64,000 nucleotides of DNA, from assembly GCA_964016885.1 (NCBI GenBank), contig OZ024740.1, forward strand, positions 92,132,001 through 92,196,000. Reading direction: 5' to 3'. The notes under the pieces are model-generated. The model was not told the origin of the DNA. It searched no databases and worked only from the letters and a program-made list of their open reading frames with translations. Position 1 is the stretch's first letter, and each line of letters opens with the position of its first letter. This DNA comes from Eledone cirrhosa (lineage: Eukaryota). This document shows positions 1 to 61,904 of this stretch, piece by piece. The translations under genes and the position numbers were made by a program.

Positions 1-818
1 CCGATAAAGTCTTTGCTACATGGCTATGAAAAAATATGTACGAAGCCTGTAGAGTACACGATTGCAGAGTGCAGCTGATCTAATATTCACACTTCTTTGA
101 GAACATTTCTAAGTATCTCTAAGAGTCGTATGCTTGCTTCGCAGGTTCTCGAAAATGCATATTACTACGTTCCAATAGACAGATTCTTATTTCCCTAATG
201 TTTCTAGTGGAATGCTGCAATATATATCTGTGCATAAATGTTACTAAATTGGAACCAGTCAATGTGGGAGTTTATTTCCTCTTCTTCCTGAACTTAATTA
301 ACATGTGCTGTTGGAAGATGTATCAGAAGTGGTGGGTGTAAGATTAGTCAGCAAGGATTTACAAATGACAAGGACTTACTTAATTCACCAGAGGTTAATC
401 TGAAATATGCACTTCAAATGTTGATCCCCAATTCTGCTCGACTAGAACAGAAATCAGTACTGCAAATACTGAGACACTCTTCCTTTCAAGGATGGCTTCA
501 CAATGCAACCTACATTAGATTAGAATTTCACTGAAAGAGGTGGAGTTATTCACGTATCTCATGGCAATTTTCAAGGCTGATGGAATTCAGGACGCTGATT
601 TCAGAAGTTGGTACAATAATTCACCAGCTTCAACATTCGGCATTCAATTAGGTTTCTTGGATAATGACCGATAGAATACGATACCGAATACAAGCACCCG
701 AAATAGGATTCGACAGAAACATGTTAATTGCATAACGTGAAGATGAATGAATCTCTCCTGACAGTGACTTTACATTTGAAGTGACAGATCACTGCTTCAA
801 TATTATGGAGTCGTGGCA

Positions 819-6596: not shown

Positions 6597-6659
<63 letters not shown>

Positions 6660-6879
6660 TTTCTGAATTTGTTTAGCAAGATTCTTTATCTGAAATCGTG
6701 TGTTGAAACCGATATTGTTATACTTTGGGAGGGTCATGTTGCCAATAAGAAACACACGCACCAGTTGCTTTCACTTCAATTTATTATTTATTTATAAATT
6801 TATAAATTTACAAATCTACAAACTTATAAAATTCTGGTTGGTTGGTTGGTTACACAACCAGATAGTTGTTTATATATAT

Positions 6880-6924
6880 AGTCATAGTCATTTCGTCACA
6901 CACTCTGTGACCTCTTCAGTGACT
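6880..6924 (-). ncRNA. Minimal hammerhead in PLE terminal repeat
   Basis: agtca-CTGAAGA-g gtcaca..tgtgac-GAAA-tgac-TA-tgact. Confidence 0.8.
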
Positions 6925-7254
6925 GGGGATTCCTTTCTTCGTTTCTGTGCCTTTTCTTTCTTCTATCCTACGCCATTTTGTTTCTGTGTGTGTGTTGTGT
7001 GCTCAGTTTGCGCATGTGCCACATCCGGGTGTCTGTGTGTGTTTCTGTTCATGTTTCTATTTGTTTATTTATTTATTGTTGGTTGGTTGTTTGTTCTATG
7101 TGTGTGTGTGTTTACATTTTGTCCTGTGTGTGTTTACATTTTGTCCTGTGTGTGTTTTCATTTTGTGTGTGTTTTCAATTGTGTGTTTTCAATTTGTGTG
7201 TGTTTTCAATTGTAAGTTGTTTGTTCTATGTGTGTGTGTGTCTTTATTTTGTCC

Positions 7255-8900
7255 TTAATTGTAAGTTGTGATGTTGCTGTTCCACTCATATTTTCTATTT
7301 AATTTTGGTTTTAATTCTTTTATGCTTACTGCCTCTGTAATTTGCCTAAACATTGCGTCTTTTCTGTGCGTGGATTCTATTTTTATTTCTATGCTCTCTA
7401 ATCTACCCCTGTGTTCTATCTTAGCATGTTGGTAGAGCACAGATGATTCTTTATTATCTTGGAGGTCTCGCCAGTGTTCATTTATTCGTTCCCTATACTA
7501 CGAGCTGTCTCACCTATGTACACTATATTTTTGTTTCTACATTGTCCTTCAGTACATCTTATGCTATACACTACATTTCTAGTTTTACAGTTAATATGGG
7601 GGCTTACTTTACAGGTTATACATTTCTTATCTATACATGAGGGTCTTTGGAACGGGTATGTCTTGCTAATAAGTGTTTTTACGGAGGTACCAGCTCTTTC
7701 TACTATCTTAATATTGAGGTTATGTTTATTTAGGGCCCTTCTAAATTTGTAGGCTAGTTCGCCTCTAGGGGTTGTATTGATGAACATTACACTCTGGTAT
7801 TTATTGCTATCATACCATGAGTTTATTTTATTGGCCTTGTTCCTAGTTCTTTCTATTCTATTCCAAAATTTGCTCCTTACAAGGGGCAGGTCCCATTTAT
7901 GTCATTATTTACCATTTTTTCCCATTTGGTTCTGGCTCCTTTATACACTCTGATTCTATCTCTCTGATTGTAGCCAGAGAACTGCATACGGTGGATGAAG
8001 TGTTGTATGTGTCTCTCTAGTTCTTCGGGGTTGCACTTGCGGGACACATTTCTCATCACCCGTACCAAATCCACAATCAGTATGTTGATTTTGGTATGGT
8101 CCGAAATGGCCGAGTTTCGGTGGATCAGATGTTTGGAAGTCATTGGTTTGGCATAATGGAAATGGAGGATTTGTTTTTGGTTGTTAATGGTATCTAACCA
8201 GAGCTCTGTGTCTAGTACAGGTAATCGATGGTTGGGGTGTCTACTTGGGTAGTCTATAGTAACTCTAATGCTCCGGTGGATGGAGTTTGCTATTTGCTGG
8301 ATGCTTTCCATTGTGTTTTTCTCTAGTTCCTGACTATTCTTTAGTGGGGGTGTCTTAACTACGATGTTTATATCATCTACGTATCGGGAGTACATTATCA
8401 GGGTTAAGCTGTCTTCTAATTGTTCATTAAGTTTTTGTTTAAGTCTACTGTCCCACCATACCATGAATAAGTTAGCTATGTCGCCTGCAATGCTCACACC
8501 AATGACTGCTCCTTCCTCTTGGGCATATGTTTTACCATTAAATTTGAACATATGTTCCTTAAGGATTAATTTTATGCTGGCCCCTACCGCATGTGCAATC
8601 ATTTTCTTCAGTTCATCGTGGTTTTCGGGTGTCCGTATGGCTCTGGTCCACCCGTTCCATCTATCTGTGTGGGTTTTCTTGGCCATTGAGGTAATGGTAG
8701 GTGGTCTGCCTCTTGCTGGTCTTGTAGGGCACAGGTTGCTAAGGTCATAAGTGTCTAGGTAACTATTACTATGGGTAAGCTTAAGTAGAAGTCCCAGCTC
8801 ACTGGTATCAATCCCACGGAACTCAACCTTGCTCTCGCTGATCATTTCTACGCATTTCTCCACAGCAAAATCCACGTCAATAGATGGATACAGCCCCTTG
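7255..8900 (-). pseudogene. PLE reverse transcriptase (from LYPSID onward) + GIY-YIG, frameshifted
   Basis: LYPSID, YAQEEGAVIG..ANLFMVWWD, RYVDD, LPVLD, HYAKPM; frameshifts near 7877 and 7490 relative to the right arm. Confidence 0.92.
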
Positions 8901-9527
8901 TATAGGAGCACATTTTGGAATAGAAGAGAAAGAACTAGGAACAAGGCCAATAAAATAAACTCATGGTATGATAGCAATAAATACCAGAGTGTAATGTTCA
9001 TCAATACAACCCCTAGAGGCGAACTAGCCTACAAATTTAGAAGGGCCCTAAATAAACATAACCTCAATATTAAGATAGTAGAAAGACCTGGTACCTCCGT
9101 AAAAACACTTATTAGCAAGACATACCCGTTCCAAAGACCCTCATGTATAGATAAGAAATGTATAACCTGTAAAATAAGCCCCCATATTAACTGTAAAACT
9201 AGAAATGTAGTGTATAACATAAGATGTACTGAAGGACAATGTAGAAACAAAAATATAGTGTACATAGGTGAGACAGCTCGTAGTATAGGGGAACGAATAA
9301 ATGAACACTGGCGAGACCTCCAAGATAATAAAGAATCATCTGTGCTCTACCAACATGCTAAGATAGAACACAGGGGTAGATTAGAGAGCATAGAAATAAA
9401 AATAGAATCCACGCACAGAAAAGACGCAATGTTTAGGCAAATTACAGAGGCAGTAAGCATAAAAGAATTAAAACCAAAATTAAATAGAAAATATGAGTGG
9501 AACAGCAACATCACAACTTACAATTAA
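8892..9527 (+). pseudogene. PLE Cys-rich linker + GIY-YIG endonuclease, open but 5'-truncated
   Basis: CIDKKCITC..CKTRNVVYNIRC..C..VYIGETARSIGERINEH..HAKIEH..RQITEA..LNRKYEW. Confidence 0.92.
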
Positions 9528-9835
9528 GGACAAAATAAAGACACACACACACATAGAACAAACAACTTACAATTGAAAACACACACAAATTGAAAACACA
9601 CAATTGAAAACACACACAAAATGAAAACACACACAGGACAAAATGTAAACACACACACACATAGAACAAACAACCAACCAACAATAAATAAATAAACAAA
9701 TAGAAAAATGAACACAAACACACACAGACACCCGGATGTGGCACATGCCCAAACTGAGCACACAACACACACACAGAAACAAAATGGCGTAGGATAGAAG
9801 AAAGAAAAGGCACAGAAACGAAGAAAGGAATCACC

Positions 9836-9880
9836 AGTCACTGAAGAGGTCACGGAGTGTGTGACGAAAGGACTATGACT
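9836..9880 (+). ncRNA. Minimal hammerhead in PLE terminal repeat
   Basis: agtca-CTGAAGA-g gtcac..gtgac-GAAA-ggac-TA-tgact. Confidence 0.85.
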
Positions 9881-10040
9881 ATATATATAAACAACTATCT
9901 GGTTGTGGAACCAACCAACAAACCAGAAATTTATAAGTTTGTAGATTTGTAAATTTATAAATGTATAAATATACAATAAATTGAAGTGAAAGCAACTGGT
10001 GCGTGTGTTTCTTATTAGCAACATGACCCTCCCAAAGTAT

Positions 10041-10462
<422 letters not shown>

Positions 10463-46177: not shown

Positions 46178-49067
46178 AGTGACGCCTTTTCTAGAGTCCA
46201 TGGAGGCCATGAGGTTGGCACAAGAAATAAAGAAGGATTCAGGCTTCTAGAATTCTGCGACGCCAATGACTTGTGGATATGTAACACAGACTTCAAAAAA
46301 CCCGACAACCACCTGATCACCTATAGGTCAGGGGAGCATTCTAGTCAGATAGATTTTATCCTCATCTGAGGACGTGACAGATGGATGGTTGTAAACACAA
46401 AATCCTTCCCTAGTGAGGAATGTACCACCCAACATAGCTTAGTTGTCAGCGACCACACGGTCAGGACTAGACGAACCTGGAAACTGAAGCCAACCTGGAG
46501 AAGAAAGATCTGGAAGCTGAATGACCCAGAAGCCAGAAACAGATTTAAAGATATTTCAATCAACGATCATGAGACTAAAGAAGAACAGATATAGACATTC
46601 AATGTAGAAGAGCACTGGGAGTTCCTAAAAAATAATTTACTAAAGGCGACGGATGAGATCTGTGGCTGGAGTAAGCCTACAGGCAGGAGAAGAGTGACTT
46701 GGTGGTGGAATAATAAGGTAGATGAGGCAGTTAAGGCTAAGAGACAGGCATGCGAAGAATGGAAGAATGGGGGAAGCAGGGTAAATTACATAGATACCAG
46801 GAGGGAAGCTAAGCTACAAGTATACTTAGCTAGGAGGGAAGCAGAGGATAGAAAATGGAAGCATGTTTTGCAACGTGAAGACCAGAAAGAGGAGTTGTTC
46901 AAGAATGCGCGGCAGTGTGTCAGATAGAATGTGATGTCCTTTGAGAGAAGTGCATCCGGAATGATAAAGGTGAGCTTGCCCTTACAAGTGCTGAGAAGAA
47001 AGATCCGTGGAAGGGCCGTTATGATAGATTACTAAATGCAGCGAAAGCATGGGAAGAAGAGACCCTATCCCAAGTAGACCCTATAGAGGGGCCAGCAGTA
47101 CAAGTCAGCAGCGGCGTAGTAAGTAAGACAATCAAAGATATGAAGACGGAGAAGGCAACCGGTCCATCGGGTATAACTGCCGAGATACTGAAGGTATCTG
47201 GGTCGGTAGGTCACACCATAACCACGCGTATTGTTGTTAACCAGGTAATACTAGAAGGTGTCATACCAAAGGATTGGTGCAGTAGCATCATTGTCAACTG
47301 CTATAAAGGTATAGGTGATGCACGAGATGGAGGAAACTATAGAGGTATGAAGCTGATGGACCAGGTCATGAAAGTAACAGAAAGAGTTATGGCACAGTTG
47401 ATTAGGGACCGGGTTAAAATAGATGAGATGCAATTTGGGTTTGTGCCAGGAAGACTCACCACTGATGCTCTCTTCCTTGCGAGGCAGTTACAGGAAAAGT
47501 AGCTAGCTAAAAAGTAAGCCACTCTACCTGGCATTCGTCGATCTCGAGAAAGCCTTTGACAGAGTTCCCCGTGCTATAATCTGGTGGGCTCTTACACAAC
47601 TAGGAGTAGATGAATGGCTTGTGAAAGCTGTACAAGCCATGTATAGGGGAGCAGTCAGCAAAGTTACGGTTAGCAATGATTACAGCGAGGAATTTAGCGT
47701 ACAGGTCGGTGTCCACCAGGGCTCTGTTCTTAGCCCTCTCATGTTCATCATAGTCCTGCAGGCAATAACGGAGGAGTTTAAGGCGGGATGCCCATGGAAC
47801 TCATGTATCCAGATGAACTCTCACTTATAGCTTATTCTATGGTAGAATGAGAGAAGAAATTCCAAACTTGGAAGCGGGGACTAGAAAGAAAAGGTCTCAA
47901 AGTCAACCTGGCAAAGACTAAGGTCCTTGTAAGTAGACGAGAAAACAGAACCCAGATCCCCTCAGGGAAATGACCTTGCTCAGTATTTAGGAAAGTTGTA
48001 GGTAGGAACTCCATTCTCTGCCCCAAATGCAAACAATGGGTACATAAGAGATGTAGCGGGATCTCAGAAAGCTTAACTAAGAAAGTAAGCTTCACATTTA
48101 GCAGCTGTGCTGGGACGGCAAGCAGCAAACAGCCACAGAAAACACGTACCACCAAACTTTGGGAGGGCTTTGTAGTAACAGTAGACAGCTTCTGCTACCT
48201 AGGTTACCGAATTAGCAGCAGAAAGTACAATAACTATGGTAAGAACGGGATGGAATAATTTCAGGGAGCTACTGCCACTGCTAGCTGAAAACGGCTTTTC
48301 CCTCAAAATGAAAGGCAGACTCTATGATGCGTGTATACGAACAGCAATGTTACATGGTAGTGAGACCTGGGCGCTGTCTGTGGAAGACTTGCGTAGATTA
48401 GAAAGAAACGAAGCCTGCATGCTCCGATTGATGTGTAATAGTAATATACGCGAGCGGCAAAGCATAAATGAATTGAGAGAGAGACTGAGCATAAGAGGAA
48501 TCAAATGATGTGTGCAGGAGAGGCTATTGCGTTGGTATGGACATGTGATGCGTATGAAGCTTGACAGCTGCATAAAAATGTGTAGAGCAGTAGAAGTCAA
48601 TGAAAACGGCGGAGAGGGGAGACTCAAGAAGATCTGGGATAAGGTAATAAAAGCCGACCTTACCCAATTACACCTATCAAAGGAGATGACACACGACCGT
48701 AACCTCTGGCGTCATACAGTAATACATAAGACCCGACCCGTCACGGGTACAAGCCGAAGCTGAAGCATATACACAAAATTCCCCCACAACCTTCCACTGC
48801 AAAGTCGTCGTGGAGATGCCACGGCAAGAAGGTAACCAGCCCAAACTGTAAAGTGGTCGTGTAGGCGCCACGGAAACAAGCACCCAGCACTCACTCTACA
48901 TGAGGTTGGTGTTAGGAAGGGCATCCAGCAGCAGAAATCAAGCCAAAATCAGTTCCCGTATGAGCAAGACAAGGTGAGCCGACCGGACACTGCCCACAGC
49001 AGGAAAACCCGTCTAACCCATGCTAGCGTGGAAAACGTAAAACGGTGATGAAGATGATGAGGATGAT

Positions 49068-49282: not shown

Positions 49283-49304
49283 TTTATATATATATATAAT
49301 ATAT

Positions 49305-50393
49305 GTAGTAATAAACAGAGTAAATCGTGTGTTTAAAAACACGAGGGTTGAAAACCACGTTTGTTTGAAATATTTAACCCTGAAACAGACAGAAAATTAT
49401 ACAGACCGCCTCAATAACTATTACATCTCCCGGATAGATTAGGGTTTAATCTGTTTCGCCCTGAGAGTGTTTGTAACATATAATCCATGGGCTTCATCAG
49501 CGAGAGAATCATATTAAATGCGACAAACACTTAATGCTAACGTTCACACGAATCAATAAATACTTCACCTCGTGCGCCGTAAGTCAAAAGTGGCGTGATA
49601 GGGTTTGGCTAGAAATAATAGCCTAATACACACAACTTATAAGCTCACCTAGGAAGGGAGCCGAAATATAAATAAAAGGTAGAGTTAGTAACTCATACTG
49701 AAACCCTGCAATTAACAAGCCCAAAGTATAAATACTGAGCTTTATAATAATAATATATATAGTAATAAACACATTAAATCGTGTGTTTAAAAATACGAGG
49801 GTTGAAAACCACGTTCGTTTGAAATATTTAACCATGAAATAGACAGAAAATTATACAGACCGCATCAATAACTAGTACAACTCCCAACCAGATTAGGGAT
49901 TAATCTGTTTCGCTCTGAGTGTGTTTGTAACAGATAATCATTGGGTATCATCAGCGAGAGAATCAGATTAAATGCGACAAAACAGTTAATGCTAACATTC
50001 ACACGAATGAATAAATACTTCACCTCGTGCGCCGTAAGTCAAAAGTGGCGTGATAGGGTTTGGCTAGAAATAATAGCCCAATACACACAACTTATAAGTT
50101 CACCTAGGAAGGGAGCCGAAATATAAAGAAAAGGTAGAGTTAGTAAATCATACTGAAGCCTTGCAATTAACAAGCTCAAAGTATAAATACTGAGCATTAT
50201 TATAATTATTATTATTATAATTGTTCCTACTATTGGCACAAGGCCAGCAATTACTCAGTACATTGCTGGTACTTTATTTTATCGACCCCGTAAGGAAGAA
50301 AGGCAAAGTATTATTTTTATAATGGTCAGTATTTATAATTTGAGCTTGTTAATTGAAGGGTTTCAGTATGAGTTAATAACTCTACCTTTTATT

Positions 50394-54389: not shown

Positions 54390-56362
54390 GAGGTGAGTTT
54401 TATTGTAGTACAATAAAGCAATGCAGATATCGGATAAGAAGCACTCTACAGTTTGTAGGACTGGAGTATACATAATATAAGATCAAAAGATGGTTAAAGG
54501 AGTTCCATGTATTTTATTATGCGCATTTCAAAAACAAACATCATCATGCAATAATATTTGTGTTTTCATCAGATAAAACAGGAGAACATGATATGACGGC
54601 TAAAAAACACTTGTGGATAATGCAGTTTTAAATCAACATATGAAAAGTGGTTTTAGATTGATGTGTGATATTGTGAAAAATATTTTATTTAGAGAGGGGG
54701 GGGTGGAAAGGATGAAAAAGGGGAGGAGATGAGAGTGAAGGTGGAGAGGGAGCGGGCTCCACTTCCACCTCTTTTAAAGCTCGTCTCTATAATCACCATT
54801 CATCTTTTAAATACAAATTTAAAAGAACCAACACGGCTCTCTCAGAACTCATATGGTCCTTGAAAGACAAAAACATTAAATATACCATCTTTTGGAAGAA
54901 GGTTTCTTCTGCATCCTCATACTTGAACAGCTCTCTATCTAAAATCTGTAATCTCTGCCTAAATGAAAAATTTACCATTATCTCTAATCTAGATTCTATA
55001 ATAAATAGACGTACAGATTTGTTTTCTATCTGCCTGCATAAATTCCATAGGACTTTTCACAAAGTATACAGCTAATATTCAATTCTTTATCAATTTAGAA
55101 TATTTTCTCAAAGGCACATATACATACACCTCTTTAAAATATACCCATCTTCCTACCTTACTTCAAAGGGCATTATACATTCTATAATACTTGTTTACTC
55201 ATTACCCTCATTCTATCTTCACCTTGTAAAATCCTTCATAACATATACATTTGTTTTTTTTGACGTTAGAATATTCATCCGCAATTATTATTATTTTTTC
55301 TCTCTATCATAAAACTTTTTAATCTCAATTTCATCCTTAATTTATTATTTTTTCTCCCCATCAACGAACTCATTCTTAATACATATTAACTCTTTCTTCG
55401 CACATATTATCAACTCCTTCAATATACAAACCTTAACTTCACATTATTTTTCTTAAATCATCTAATACACAAACCTTAATAATTTTTAAATACATATTAA
55501 CTCTTTCTTCGCACATATTATCAATTCCTTCAATATACAAACTTTAACTTCACATTATCTTTCTCAAATCCTTCTACACACAAACCTTAATAATTTTTTC
55601 TCTTCATTAATTTTGAAATTGCCACAATACTTATCAACATACACCTTTTTGACGTTAGAATATTCATCCGCAATTATTATTTTTTCTCTCTATCTTCATA
55701 CATAAACTCCCTTTCTTTCCTCGTACATATTTTTCCCTTCGTTAATTTTCAAATTCTTTTAATTTATACATTATCTTCCAACGGTTCTCAACCTCTCTAT
55801 GTAAAACAATATACCTTTTCTCAGTTATAAAAACTATCGCTTTCTCTCTATCACCCATCTCTCCCTCTCCACCTTCACTCTCATCTCCTCCCCTTTTTTC
55901 ATCCTTTCCAGCCCCCCTCCCTAAATAAAATATTTTTTCCTCGTACATATTTTTCCCTTCGTTAATTTTCAAATTCTTTTAATTTATACATTATCTTCCA
56001 ACGGTTTTCAACCTCTCTATGTAAAACAATATATCTTCTCTCAGTTATAAAAACTATCTCTTTCTCTCTATCACCCATCTCTCCCTCTCCACCTTCACTC
56101 TCATCTCCTCCCCGTTTTCATCCTTTCCACCACCACCCCTCTCTAAATAAAATATTTTTCCCAATATCACACATCAATCTAAAACCACTTTTCATATGTT
56201 GATTTAAAACTGCACTATCCACAAGTGTTTTTTAGCCTTCATATCATGTTCTCCTGTTTTATCTGATGAAAACACAAATATTATTGCATGCTGAAGTTTG
56301 TTTTTGAAATGCGCATAATAAAATACATGGAACTCATTTAAGCATCTTTTGATCTTATATTA
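54386..56362. mobile_element. PLE family G, tail-out inverted copy; HHRs 54510-54579 (-) and 56256-56324 (+)
   Basis: 54470-54750 mirrors 56080-56362; internal ~118 and ~220 bp tandem duplications. Confidence 0.88.
54770..55075 (+). pseudogene. GIY-YIG endonuclease C-terminal remnant
   Basis: FKARLYNHHSSF..TALSELIWSLKDK..WKKV..CNLCLNEKFTI..INRRTDL..CLHK. Confidence 0.85.
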
Positions 56363-56379
56363 TATATATATATATATTT

Positions 56380-58299
56380 CGTTTCTGAATTTGTTTAGCA
56401 AGATTCTTTATCTGAAATCGTGTGTTGAAACCGATATTGTTATACTTTGGGAGGGTCATCTTGCCAATGAGAAACACACGCACCAGAGGCTTTCACTTCA
56501 ATTTATTATAATAAATTTATAATAAATTTATAAATTTATAAATGTCTGGTTGGTTGGTTGGTTCCACAACCAGATAGTTGTTTATATATAGTCATAGTTC
56601 TTTCGTCACACACTCTGTGACCTCTTCAGTGACTGGGGATTCCTTTCTTTGTTTCTGTGCCTCTCCTTTGTTCTGTCCTACGTCATTTTGTTTCTGTGTG
56701 TGTGTTGTGAGCTCAGTCTGCGCATGCGCCACCTCCGGGTGTCTGTGTGTGTTTATGTTCATTTATTTATTTGTTTATTTACATTTTACTGGTTGGTTGT
56801 TTGTTCTATGTGTGTGTGTGTTTTCATTTTGTCCTTAATTGTTAGTTGTGATGTTGCTGTTCCACTCATATTTTCTATTTAATTTAGGTTGTAATTCTTT
56901 TATGTTTACTGTCTCTGTAATTTGTCTAAACATTGCGTCTTTTCTGTGTGTAGATTCTATTTTTATATCTATGTTCTCTAATTTACCCTTGTGTTATATT
57001 TTAGCATGTTGGTACAGTACAGATGATTCTTCACTATCTTGAAGGTCTCGCCAGTGTTCATTTATCCGTTCCCCTACAATACGAGCTGTCTCAGCTATAT
57101 ACACTATATTTTTGTCTCTACATTGTCCTTCAGTACATCGTATGCTATACACTACATTTCTAGTTTTACAGTTAATATGGGGGCTTATTTTACAGGTTAT
57201 ACATTTCTTATCTATACATGAGGGTTTTTGAAAAGGGTATGTCTTGCTAATAAGTGTTTTTACGGAGGTAAAGTGTTTTTACGGAGGTACCTGGTCTTTC
57301 TACTATTTTAATATTGAGTTTATGTTTATTTAGGGCCCTTCTAAATTTGTAAGCTAATTCACCTCTAGTGGTTGTATCGATGAACAGCCCCTAGAGGTGA
57401 ATTAGCTTACAAATTTAGAAGGGCCCTAAATAAACATAAACTCAATATTAAGATAATAGAAAGACCAGGTCCCTCCGTAAAAACACTTATTAGCAAGACA
57501 TACCCTTTTCAAAGACCCTCATGTATAGATAAGAAATGTATAACCTGTAAAATAAGCCCCCATATTAACTGTAAAACTAGAAATGTAGTATATAGCATAA
57601 GATGTACTGAAGGACAATGTAGAGACAAAAAATATAGTGTACATAGGTGAGACAGCTCGTAGTGTTGGGGAACGGATAAAGGAACACTGGCGAGACCTTC
57701 AAGATAGTACAGATGATTCTGTACTCTACCAACATGCTAAAATAGAACACAATGGTAAATTAGAGAACATTGAAATAAAAATAGAATCTACACACAGAAA
57801 AAACGCAATGTTTAGACAAATTACAGAGGCAATAAACATAAAAGAATTACAACCAAAATTAAATAGAAAATATGAGTGGAACAGCAACATCACAACTTAA
57901 AATTAAAGACAAAATGAAAACACACACACGCATAGAACAAACAACCAACCAGTAACATGTAAATAAACAAATAAATAAATGAATATAAACACACACAGAC
58001 ACCCGGACGTGGCACATGCGCAGATTCAGCACACAACACACACACATAAACAAAATGGCGTAGGACAGAACAAAGGAGAGGCACAGAAACAAAGAAAGGA
58101 ATCCCCAGTCACTGAAGAGGTCACAGAGTGTGTGACGAAAGAACTATGACTATATATAAACAACTATCTGGTTGTGGAACCAACCAACCAACCATAAATT
58201 TATAAATTTATAAATTTATTATGAATTTATTATAATAAATTGAAGTGAAAGCCTCTGGTGCGTGTGTTTCTCATTGGCAACATGACCCTCCCAGAGTAT

Positions 58300-58304
<5 letters not shown>
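56380..58304. mobile_element. Second head-to-head inverted PLE of the 6658-10045 family (endonuclease part only); HHRs 56590-56634 (-), 58107-58151 (+)
   Basis: Centre ~57385; YIGETARSVGERIKEH..LNRKYEW at 57637-57900; same termini as 6658/10045. Confidence 0.93.
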
Positions 58305-58383
<79 letters not shown>

Positions 58384-58434: not shown

Positions 58435-59387
<953 letters not shown>

Positions 59388-59520
59388 GTATATATATATA
59401 TATGTATATATATGTATATATATATATATGTATATATATGTATATATATATATATGTATATATATGTATATATATATATATGTATATATATGTATATATA
59501 TATATATCTATATATATGTG

Positions 59521-59550
<30 letters not shown>

Positions 59551-59551
<1 letters not shown>

Positions 59552-60630
59552 GTGTTCCTTCACGCACAAGGCGCTAAGGGACGCATGTATTGTCCAACCA
59601 ATGTGGTTCAATGGCAGGTTAATAAATTAACGAGCCAGAACATATATAAACAAGGTTTAGCAAATAAAGAAAAAGTTTCTAAATAAATCAAAAAAAATTG
59701 ACTTTACCTACTATAGTTACCTTTACCGATCGGTTTCGAATCCCAAAAATAAACGGAGGCCATTCGGCCTTAGTTGCAAAGAAAGATTCTCGTCAGAAGG
59801 TTCTTTTCATTCGAAGAATATAAAATTCTTGAATTTAAATTACGAACTAGCGCTATCCAAAACTGTTCCCGAGATGGGAGTGAATGAAGTGGATTCAATT
59901 ATTTCAAGGGCCGAAGTAAAGATAGAGGCAGAGGGAGTTAGGTCAACCGGCCGCAACTATCACTAGCAGCAGTCGGAACGACCAAATTTGCTTCTCAACA
60001 ATAGAGGAGAATAGTAATAATAGGATATGTGTTCCTTCACGCACAAGGCGCTAAGGGACGCATGTATTGTCCAACCAAATGCCAATGTGGTTCAATAGCA
60101 GGTTAATAAAGTAACGAGCCAGAACATATATAAACAAGGTTTAGCAAATAATGAAAAAGTTTCAAAATCAATTTTAAAAAATTGACTTTACCTACTATAG
60201 TTACCTTTACATGCGTCCCTTAGCGCCTTGTGCGTGAAGGAACACATATCCAATTATTACTATTCTCCTCTATTGTTGAGAAGCAAATTTGGTCGTTCCG
60301 ACTGCTGCTAGTGATAGTTGCGGCCGGTTGACCTACCTCCCTCTGCTTCTATCTTTACTTCGGCCCTTGAAAAAATTGATTCCACTTCATTCACTCTCAT
60401 CTCGGGAACAGTTTTGGATAGCGCTAGTTCGTAATTTAAATTCACGATTTTTATGTTCTTCGAATGAAAAGAACCTTTTGACGAGAATCTTTCTTTGCAA
60501 CGAAGGCCGTATGGCCTCCGTTTATTTTTGGGATTCGAAACCGATCGGTAAAGGTAACTATAGTAGGTAAAGTCAATTTTTTAAAATTTATTTTGAAACT
60601 TTTTCATTATTTGCTAAACCTTGTTTATAT
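59551..60630. mobile_element. Family H retrozyme-like unit (~480 bp), 1.4x tandem (-) + inverted arm; HHRs 59719-59801 (-), 60473-60555 (+)
   Basis: acctt-CTGACGA-gaatct..ggattc-GAAA-ccgatcgg-TA-aaggt. Confidence 0.88.
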
Positions 60631-60647
60631 ATGTATATATATGTATA

Positions 60648-60726
<79 letters not shown>

Positions 60727-60749
60727 GTATATATATGTATATATATATG

Positions 60750-61904
<1,155 letters not shown>

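What the first reader, a model, noticed from the sequence alone, without database searches (positions are those of the whole stretch)
59551..60630. Array ends at the predicted self-cleavage site
The minus arm is a partial unit (59551-59723) plus one monomer (59724-60207, 484 nt) running from cleavage site to cleavage site. At 60207/60208 gttacctt joins tacatgcgtccc of the opposite arm, matching GUA^aaggtaac (3 nt tac microhomology makes this ambiguous by 3 nt). This is a genomic footprint that the self-cleaved RNA was the RT template, and that RT crossed one ligated, uncleaved or jumped junction.
Basis: partly seen in the sequence, partly recalled or inferred. Interest (0 to 1): 0.75.

Follow-up and report, generated by a model that had tools for sequence, protein, structure and literature searches.

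The report
Two-armed retrozyme; cut-site ending mostly coincidental
This is one back-to-back copy of a 484-base non-coding jumping repeat with a predicted self-cutting ribozyme; one arm stops within three bases of the predicted cut, but other copies stop there only about 2% of the time, and their shape likely records a Penelope-type enzyme copying an uncut or circular RNA from two fixed start points at once.

Summary
In detail: a minus arm (59548-60210) of a partial unit plus one 484-nt unit meets an opposite arm at 60207-60210, 0-3 nt from a predicted type I hammerhead cut. The inference is mostly not supported. In a sample picked by 3' ends only, 4 of 182 arrivals at the cut site stop there and 178 read through. 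There is a broad 2.4-2.9-fold excess of 5' ends over -3..+13, with its top bin at +9 and no single-base pile-up. The 3 shared bases lie upstream of the scissile bond, which fits read-through plus microhomology joining; I put true run-off here at about 20-25%. The stronger footprint is at the 3' ends: they sit at unit positions ~82 (S1) and ~190 (S2) in (TA)n, and 101 of 118 two-armed copies pair S1 with S2 (S1+S1 2, S2+S2 0). Arrays reach 10 units with private variants in every unit. This is a non-LTR retrozyme, likely copied by a Penelope-like enzyme from a circle. The scan noted this two-arm design before in other families.

The parts
58832..59547 (.). Left (TA)n-rich flank (the tract also holds an unrelated short palindromic element at about 59082-59268)
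59548..59723 (-). Partial unit, positions 1-183; its 3' end at 59548 is an S2-class start point of reverse transcription (inferred), merging with (TA)n through ATAT
59719..59801 (-). Complete predicted type I hammerhead; predicted cut between 59724 and 59723
   Evidence: cleavage not tested
59724..60207 (-). Full 484-nt unit, 38% GC, longest ATG frame 30 aa
   Evidence: family: 1240 exact copies of +1..+26, 2069 candidates
60208..60210 (.). 3-nt overlap at the head-to-head junction; equals positions -3..-1 of the minus arm and 142-144 of the plus arm
60208..60634 (+). Opposite arm, positions 142-484 then 1-84; crosses a predicted cut at 60550/60551; core changed at 60478; 3' end is the S1-class start point (inferred)
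60635..60861 (.). Right (TA)n flank

Best explanation
This is a two-armed, head-to-head insertion of a 484-nt non-LTR retrozyme in a (TA)n tract, likely made when a Penelope-like enzyme primed both cut DNA strands at two fixed internal sites of an uncut, likely circular RNA, and its minus arm likely stops near the predicted cut through read-through and 3-nt microhomology joining rather than by running off a cleaved end. Shown: unit, hammerhead motif, (TA)n flanks, fixed 3' ends at ~82 and ~190, S1+S2 pairing, scattered 5' ends, homogeneous arrays. Inferred: (1) tandem transcripts self-cleave and monomers are ligated into circles, as shown for other animal retrozymes; (2) a Penelope-like RT/GIY-YIG protein nicks (TA)n on both strands and starts one cDNA at S1 and the other at S2; (3) each cDNA runs around the circle for a variable distance, crossing the junction about 98% of the time; (4) the two cDNA ends are joined head to head, often through 1-4 nt of microhomology, or a single arm is joined to the flank; (5) a few percent of passes stop in a ~16-nt zone at and just after the cut, from a mix of cleaved templates with trimming, pausing at the ribozyme, and local palindromes.
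For: 3' ends: among 201 insertions, 158 arms end at position 82 and 80 at 188 or 191; 333 of 348 S1/S2 ends are followed by TA-rich sequence. Pairing: 101 of 118 two-arm insertions are S1+S2, 2 are S1+S1, 0 are S2+S2, 15 involve another end; 43 of 46 in the sample picked by S1 ends. Sibling 481- and 487-nt families show +89 paired with +196/197 in 4 of 4 two-arm insertions seen. Read-through: 178 of 182 arrivals; genome-wide, 20 of 1240 copies of +1..+26 lack the normal bases at -5/-4, 17 of them true ends at -3..+1 including this locus. Single-template copying: arms up to 4911 nt with 10 near-identical units; 8 of 32 arrays carry variants fixed in all full units and absent from the other 31; one variant is in 7 of 7 units of L089 and in 1 of 209 loci; L094 shares two variants across both arms. 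Microhomology: 48 of 118 junctions overlap by 2 nt or more, against 17% by chance. Literature: two internal RT start sites that bound the Penelope 'tail', both strands cut and extended, ribozyme cleavage not needed in vitro (PMC11167929); circles proposed as RT templates (PMC7229834).
Against: No RNA was examined, so cleavage, circles and expression are untested for this family. No autonomous partner was found: tblastn with the window's Penelope-like RT and endonuclease hit neighbouring insertions only. The excess of ends at -3..+13 is real (p about 0.006; genome-wide 0.29%/nt detected, against 0.20 at +25..+62 and 0.10 at 381-406), so some cleaved-template events are likely and this locus could be one. 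Homogeneous arrays can also come from a multimer transcript of a homogeneous master, from gene conversion or from assembly smoothing; unsampled loci may share the 'private' variants (24T occurs in 10 other loci, 445T in 2). PMC11167929 found priming without homology to the target and no strand difference in start site, whereas here both sites are UA-rich and the two arms differ. The units of this locus differ from each other by 3.5-8%, mostly at private sites, so it cannot itself show single-template copying.
Confidence: 0.68

Rival explanations
1. One reading: the template was a linear dimer or longer RNA with a self-cleaved 5' end; RT crossed one uncut or ligated junction and ran off at +1, and the 3-nt match is chance.
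For: The arm is S2-class, and S2 arms stop at -3..+1 more often than S1 arms: 4 of 50 against 0 of 128 arrivals, Fisher p=0.006. The partner arm here (427 nt) stops before the same end. When one arm ends at -3..+1 the partner ends within -13..+45 in 9 of 16 cases, against 25 of 92 in the background.
Against: The overlap lies outside the cleaved RNA; chance 4 of 484. Exact +1 ends are few (2 of 68, by eye). The S2 split was found after looking; in the complete list it is only 7 S2 against 8 S1 once this locus is left out. Several S2 arms end at the site while their S1 partner has passed the same junction (L108, L136, L240, L241).
Confidence: 0.2
2. The local excess of ends comes from RT pausing at the folded ribozyme and the hairpin just after it, and from fold-back joining at the palindromes at -10..-3 and +7..+14 and TA pairing at -2 and +9; no cleaved template is involved.
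For: The top bin is +9, a TATA site; the control window also peaks at its TATA site; L229 is a perfect fold-back at +7; five ends at -2 join TA flanks; a long hairpin is predicted at about +10..+47.
Against: It does not explain the S2 bias at -3..+1 or the ends exactly at +1 with unrelated bases beyond (L112, L119, L120, L240). It overlaps with the best explanation and differs only in allowing no cleaved templates.
Confidence: 0.35
3. RT copies linear cleaved monomers and jumps from the 5' end to a 3' end at each junction (R2-like template jumping); here it jumped, copied 3 nt and stopped.
For: It accounts for arrays and for short extensions past +1; deletions and duplications near the junction exist (10 of the first 100 hits).
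Against: Such rearranged junctions are about 1% of 1347 passes, similar to the control window (about 9 of 50 hits among 1384, by eye). Ten clean consecutive junctions in one arm (L081) would need nearly perfect jumps.
Confidence: 0.1
4. The arrays and inversions arose at DNA level after insertion (unequal crossover, slippage, fold-back repair in TA tracts).
For: TA tracts are unstable; the satellite route is the model discussed in bioRxiv 10.64898/2026.07.22.740005.
Against: DNA-level events would copy one 3' end, yet the two arms end at different fixed sites in 101 of 118 cases; young arrays have almost no unit-to-unit differences.
Confidence: 0.05

Closest known systems
Metazoan non-LTR retrozymes (Cervera and de la Pena 2020, PMC7229834: passages plus sections 16 and 17 read; Li, Clavereau and Pollet, bioRxiv 10.64898/2026.07.22.740005: parts 1-3 of 5 read)
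   Same: Non-coding head-to-tail units of low GC, each with a type I hammerhead with a short stem III; dispersed monomers to multimers; proposed mobilisation by Penelope-like elements from circular RNA.
   Different: The unit (484 nt) is just above the 150-450 bp range of the first paper, within the 51-972 bp of the second. In the parts read, neither maps insertion ends, two-arm geometry or fixed start sites. Cleavage and circles were shown there by experiment and are not shown here.
Endonuclease-positive Penelope-like elements: Poseidon of Anolis (PMC11167929, parts 1-2 of 4 read), Adineta Penelope (PMC3846280, passages), Neptune/Naiad (PMC8557442, passages)
   Same: 5' truncation, partial tandems, head-to-head inverted copy, an optional tail on one arm, microhomology at 5' junctions, microsatellite targets, internal RT start about 85-92 nt after the ribozyme cut in Poseidon (82 nt here).
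   Different: No ORF. The tail is about 106-109 nt, not 30-40. Both start sites are UA-rich and match the (TA)n target. The pairing of one short and one long arm is near-obligate here; the papers describe the tail as optional or often at one end, without counts in the passages read.
L1 twin priming
   Same: Both target strands prime cDNA, giving two arms with outward 3' ends joined by microhomology.
   Different: No poly(A); both start points are fixed; arms overlap in sequence and can each run several units.

Membership tests
Non-LTR retrozyme | Type I hammerhead motif in each unit | tested here: met
   Motif in the unit; core intact in 137 of 140 distinct parsed segments; stems covary across sibling families; Rfam 0 hits at gathering scores
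Non-LTR retrozyme | Head-to-tail tandem units of a few hundred bp, dispersed in the genome | tested here: met
   483-485-nt spacing, arrays up to 10 full units on many contigs
Non-LTR retrozyme | Non-coding, low GC, no LTR structure | tested here: met
   38% GC, longest ATG frame 30 aa; 0 Pfam families for the 2 stop-to-stop frames in the unit that were scanned; no terminal direct repeats
Non-LTR retrozyme | Self-cleavage of the transcript | not testable with these tools
   Predicted only; the ribozyme-competent fold of the circle is 9.6 kcal/mol above the minimum; 8 of 9 predicted dimers did not cleave in the Xenopus preprint
Non-LTR retrozyme | Accumulates as circular RNA | not testable with these tools
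   Indirect only: homogeneous arrays with fixed private variants
Penelope-like element insertion | 5' truncation, inverted 5' copy and tail on one arm | tested here: met
Penelope-like element insertion | Microsatellite target | tested here: met
   333 of 348 S1/S2 ends followed by TA-rich sequence
Autonomous Penelope-like element | RT plus GIY-YIG ORF | tested here: not met
   No ORF in the unit; it works like a Penelope pLTR but is not an autonomous element
Non-autonomous partner of a named Penelope-like family | Sequence shared with the pLTR of an autonomous element | tested here: inconclusive
   No match to the Penelope-like copies in the window; no ORF joined to a unit in 335 + 30 loci; no genome-wide pLTR survey was done

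The most novel reading that the evidence does not exclude
One Penelope-like dimer primes both target strands on one RNA circle, first at S1 and later at S2, and the ribozyme is triggered during the reaction, so that the later S2 cDNA meets a freshly cut end several times more often than the S1 cDNA. Genomic end maps would then time ribozyme cleavage inside the retrotransposition cycle and give it a role in ending rolling-circle copying.
Probability: 0.2. Interest if true: 0.7.

Novelty: new member of a known kind. Interest (0 to 1): 0.42.

Why it matters
How retrozyme circles are written into DNA, and how Penelope-like elements make their inverted, one-tailed insertions, are open questions (PMC7229834, PMC8557442, PMC11167929). 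This family gives counts that bear on both: near-obligate pairing of two start sites, about 98% read-through of the ribozyme junction, and multi-unit arms that look copied from one monomer. These define a small RNA substrate (cut to +190) for in vitro tests.

Tried and rejected
Rfam at gathering scores: 0 hits. Sequencing runs: no RNA holder listed; laying contigs of 2 DNA-type or unlabelled runs showed the family but no piece spanning the junction, which says nothing either way. Chimera of two subfamilies switching at the cut: rejected, the differences between the three segments are mostly private. Exact-length circular permutation of arms: not seen, arm lengths vary widely. Early-abort gradient as the only cause of the local excess: not sufficient, since after 300 nt of copying the rates are 7 in 1141 nt at -3..+13 against 4 in 2440 upstream and 3 in 2049 at +14..+40, though these counts are small. 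Partner search: a ribozyme-anchored pattern found 134 hits in sibling non-coding families, and none of 30 loci had a Penelope ORF joined to a unit. Paper searches for twin priming with Penelope (none of 11 listed papers held both 'twin priming' and 'pLTR') and for rolling-circle reverse transcription of retrozymes (2 papers, listing only) found no end-mapping study; the library lacks most subscription papers, and supplements (for example Fig. S2 of PMC11167929) were not read. Look-ups of earlier findings near this place and by sequence gave nothing.

Full report
Anatomy. The window lies in a 3.0-Gb animal assembly. Between two (TA)n tracts are a minus arm (59548-60210) and a plus arm (60208-60634) of a 484-nt unit. 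I number the unit from the predicted cut (+1). The minus arm reads -3..-1, one full unit, then 1-183. The plus arm reads 142-484, then 1-84. Both 3' ends point outward. The unit is 38% GC and non-coding and holds a type I hammerhead with a palindromic stem III. The core is intact in 137 of 140 parsed segments, and stems I and II differ in a paired way in sibling families. Rfam did not detect it. The cut site is assigned from the known hammerhead consensus (my knowledge), not by experiment.

Family. There are 1240 exact copies of +1..+26 and 581 exact junctions of position 82 with (TA)n. From 335 fetched loci I obtained 271 non-redundant insertions not touching a locus edge and kept the 254 with at least 84% identity. 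Many of these were fetched because of where one 5' end lay, so they serve for 3'-end pairing only. For 5' ends I used the first 100 places, chosen by the 3' junction alone: 96 insertions with 97 of those junctions and 142 arms were recovered; this locus is not among them. Ends are BLAST ends against this one unit and can be shifted in the older subfamily; clusters near -170 and -146 look like alignment stops.

Do 5' ends pile up at the cut? In the unbiased sample the mean stop rate is 0.198% per nt. At -3..+1 it is 4 in 721 nt, at +2..+13 11 in 2230, at -40..-4 11 in 6319, at +14..+82 30 in 14391. The zone -3..+13 is 2.9 and 2.4 times its flanks, p about 0.006 each; -3..+1 alone gives p=0.057. 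Genome-wide pattern counts agree. In -13..+13, 146 of 1347 anchors lack the normal upstream bases; of the first 100, read by eye, 69 were true ends and 31 were indel, deletion or duplication variants, which I dropped; a script on fetched loci confirmed the positions. In the control window 381-406, 50 of 1384 gave 37 ends, 33 of them independent. In +25..+62, 126 of 827 gave 48 ends and 5 unclear in the first 100. Detected rates are 0.29, 0.10 and 0.20% per nt, and 0.32 at the site itself. Within -13..+13 the counts at -3, -2, -1 and +1 are 5, 5, 4 and 2 without this locus, and the top bin is +9 with 8. So there is a modest, broad excess and no spike. About 98% of arrivals at the junction go on (178 of 182).

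This junction. Head-to-head junctions often share bases: 48 of 118 overlap by 2 nt or more, against 17% in simulated blunt joins. Bases used for such joining must be present in both cDNAs. Here the shared bases are -3..-1, which a cleaved RNA lacks. A blunt join after run-off at +1 produces a 3-nt outward match for 4 of 484 partner positions. A rough estimate (inference): run-off at about 3% of S2 passes, times about 0.25 for a direct join, times 0.008, against about 0.4% for a random stop at -3 times 0.07 for a 3-nt overlap (8 of 118), gives about 20% for run-off. A template jump followed by 3 nt of copying would also fit but is less likely. This split was found after looking, and the complete list gives only 7 S2 against 8 S1.

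The stronger signal. 3' ends sit at position 82 (S1, inside TATATAT) or 180-198 (S2, mainly 188 and 191) and run into (TA)n (333 of 348). Single arms are S1 in 109, S2 in 20 and other in 7 cases. Two-arm insertions are S1+S2 in 101 of 118, S1+S1 in 2 and S2+S2 in 0; free choice could give at most half mixed. Sibling families show the same geometry at +89 and +196/197, as do the neighbouring element at about 60858-61830 and a Penelope-like copy at 6657-10046 with a 70-nt extension on one arm. Frangieh et al. (PMC11167929) showed for Poseidon that RT starts at two internal sites that bound the genomic tail, that both strands are cut and extended, that the protein is predicted to be a dimer, and that ribozyme cleavage is not needed in vitro. 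The simplest reading is one start site per target strand.

Template. Arms reach 4911 nt. Young arrays differ by about 0-1 nt between units, and 8 of 32 arrays carry variants fixed in all full units and absent from the other 31. L089 has one in 7 of 7 units, found in 1 of 209 loci; L094 shares two across both arms. This fits repeated copying of one monomer, as proposed for retrozyme circles (PMC7229834). Rearranged junctions are about 1% of passes, like the control window, which favours a covalently continuous template over repeated jumps. A homogeneous multimer transcript, conversion or assembly smoothing are not excluded.

Comparison and verdict. By every feature testable here it is a non-LTR retrozyme and it inserts like a Penelope-like element; the partner was not identified. 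Earlier unchecked notes of this scan report the two-arm, two-start design in other families of this genome and mixed results on cut-site ends; I read them after forming and testing my own reading, and they are not independent support. They call the host a mollusc or cephalopod, which I did not check. Verdict: observation confirmed, interpretation partly supported, new member of a known kind, interest 0.42.

Noticed in passing
window 60858-61830: Sibling retrozyme sharing stem III and a short motif at +14..+21; two arms, the plus arm about 100 nt longer at its 3' end; neither 5' end is at the predicted cut.
   Followed up: partly
window 6657-10046 and 56434-58307: Two-armed Penelope-like copies with RT and C-terminal GIY-YIG fragments, a cysteine-rich linker (Neptune-like, name recalled) and a minimal hammerhead; the first has a 70-nt extension on one arm.
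   Followed up: partly
window 58578-59268: Short palindromic elements in TA tracts with a hammerhead-like core (hits at 58740 and 59177), present twice about 440 nt apart.
   Followed up: no
window 49287-50206: 455-nt tandem dimer with a hammerhead-like core in each unit on the minus strand.
   Followed up: no
window 54467-56368: Another inverted-arm element (236-nt arms) with a hammerhead-like core and internal 111- and 220-nt tandem repeats.
   Followed up: no
L336-L365: Two further sibling families with 481- and 487-nt units, same stem III, start sites +89 and +196/197; 134 pattern hits genome-wide.
   Followed up: partly
L245, L246, L093: Short duplications and microhomology deletions at the ribozyme junction; possible rare RT slips or jumps.
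   Followed up: partly
G000 C19 and C27 (five hits): The same truncated copy and flank at five places, likely a segmental duplication.
   Followed up: no
window 46945-47827 and 47974-48255: RT fragments (RVT_1) and a PHD-finger frame, likely a decayed non-LTR retrotransposon.
   Followed up: no
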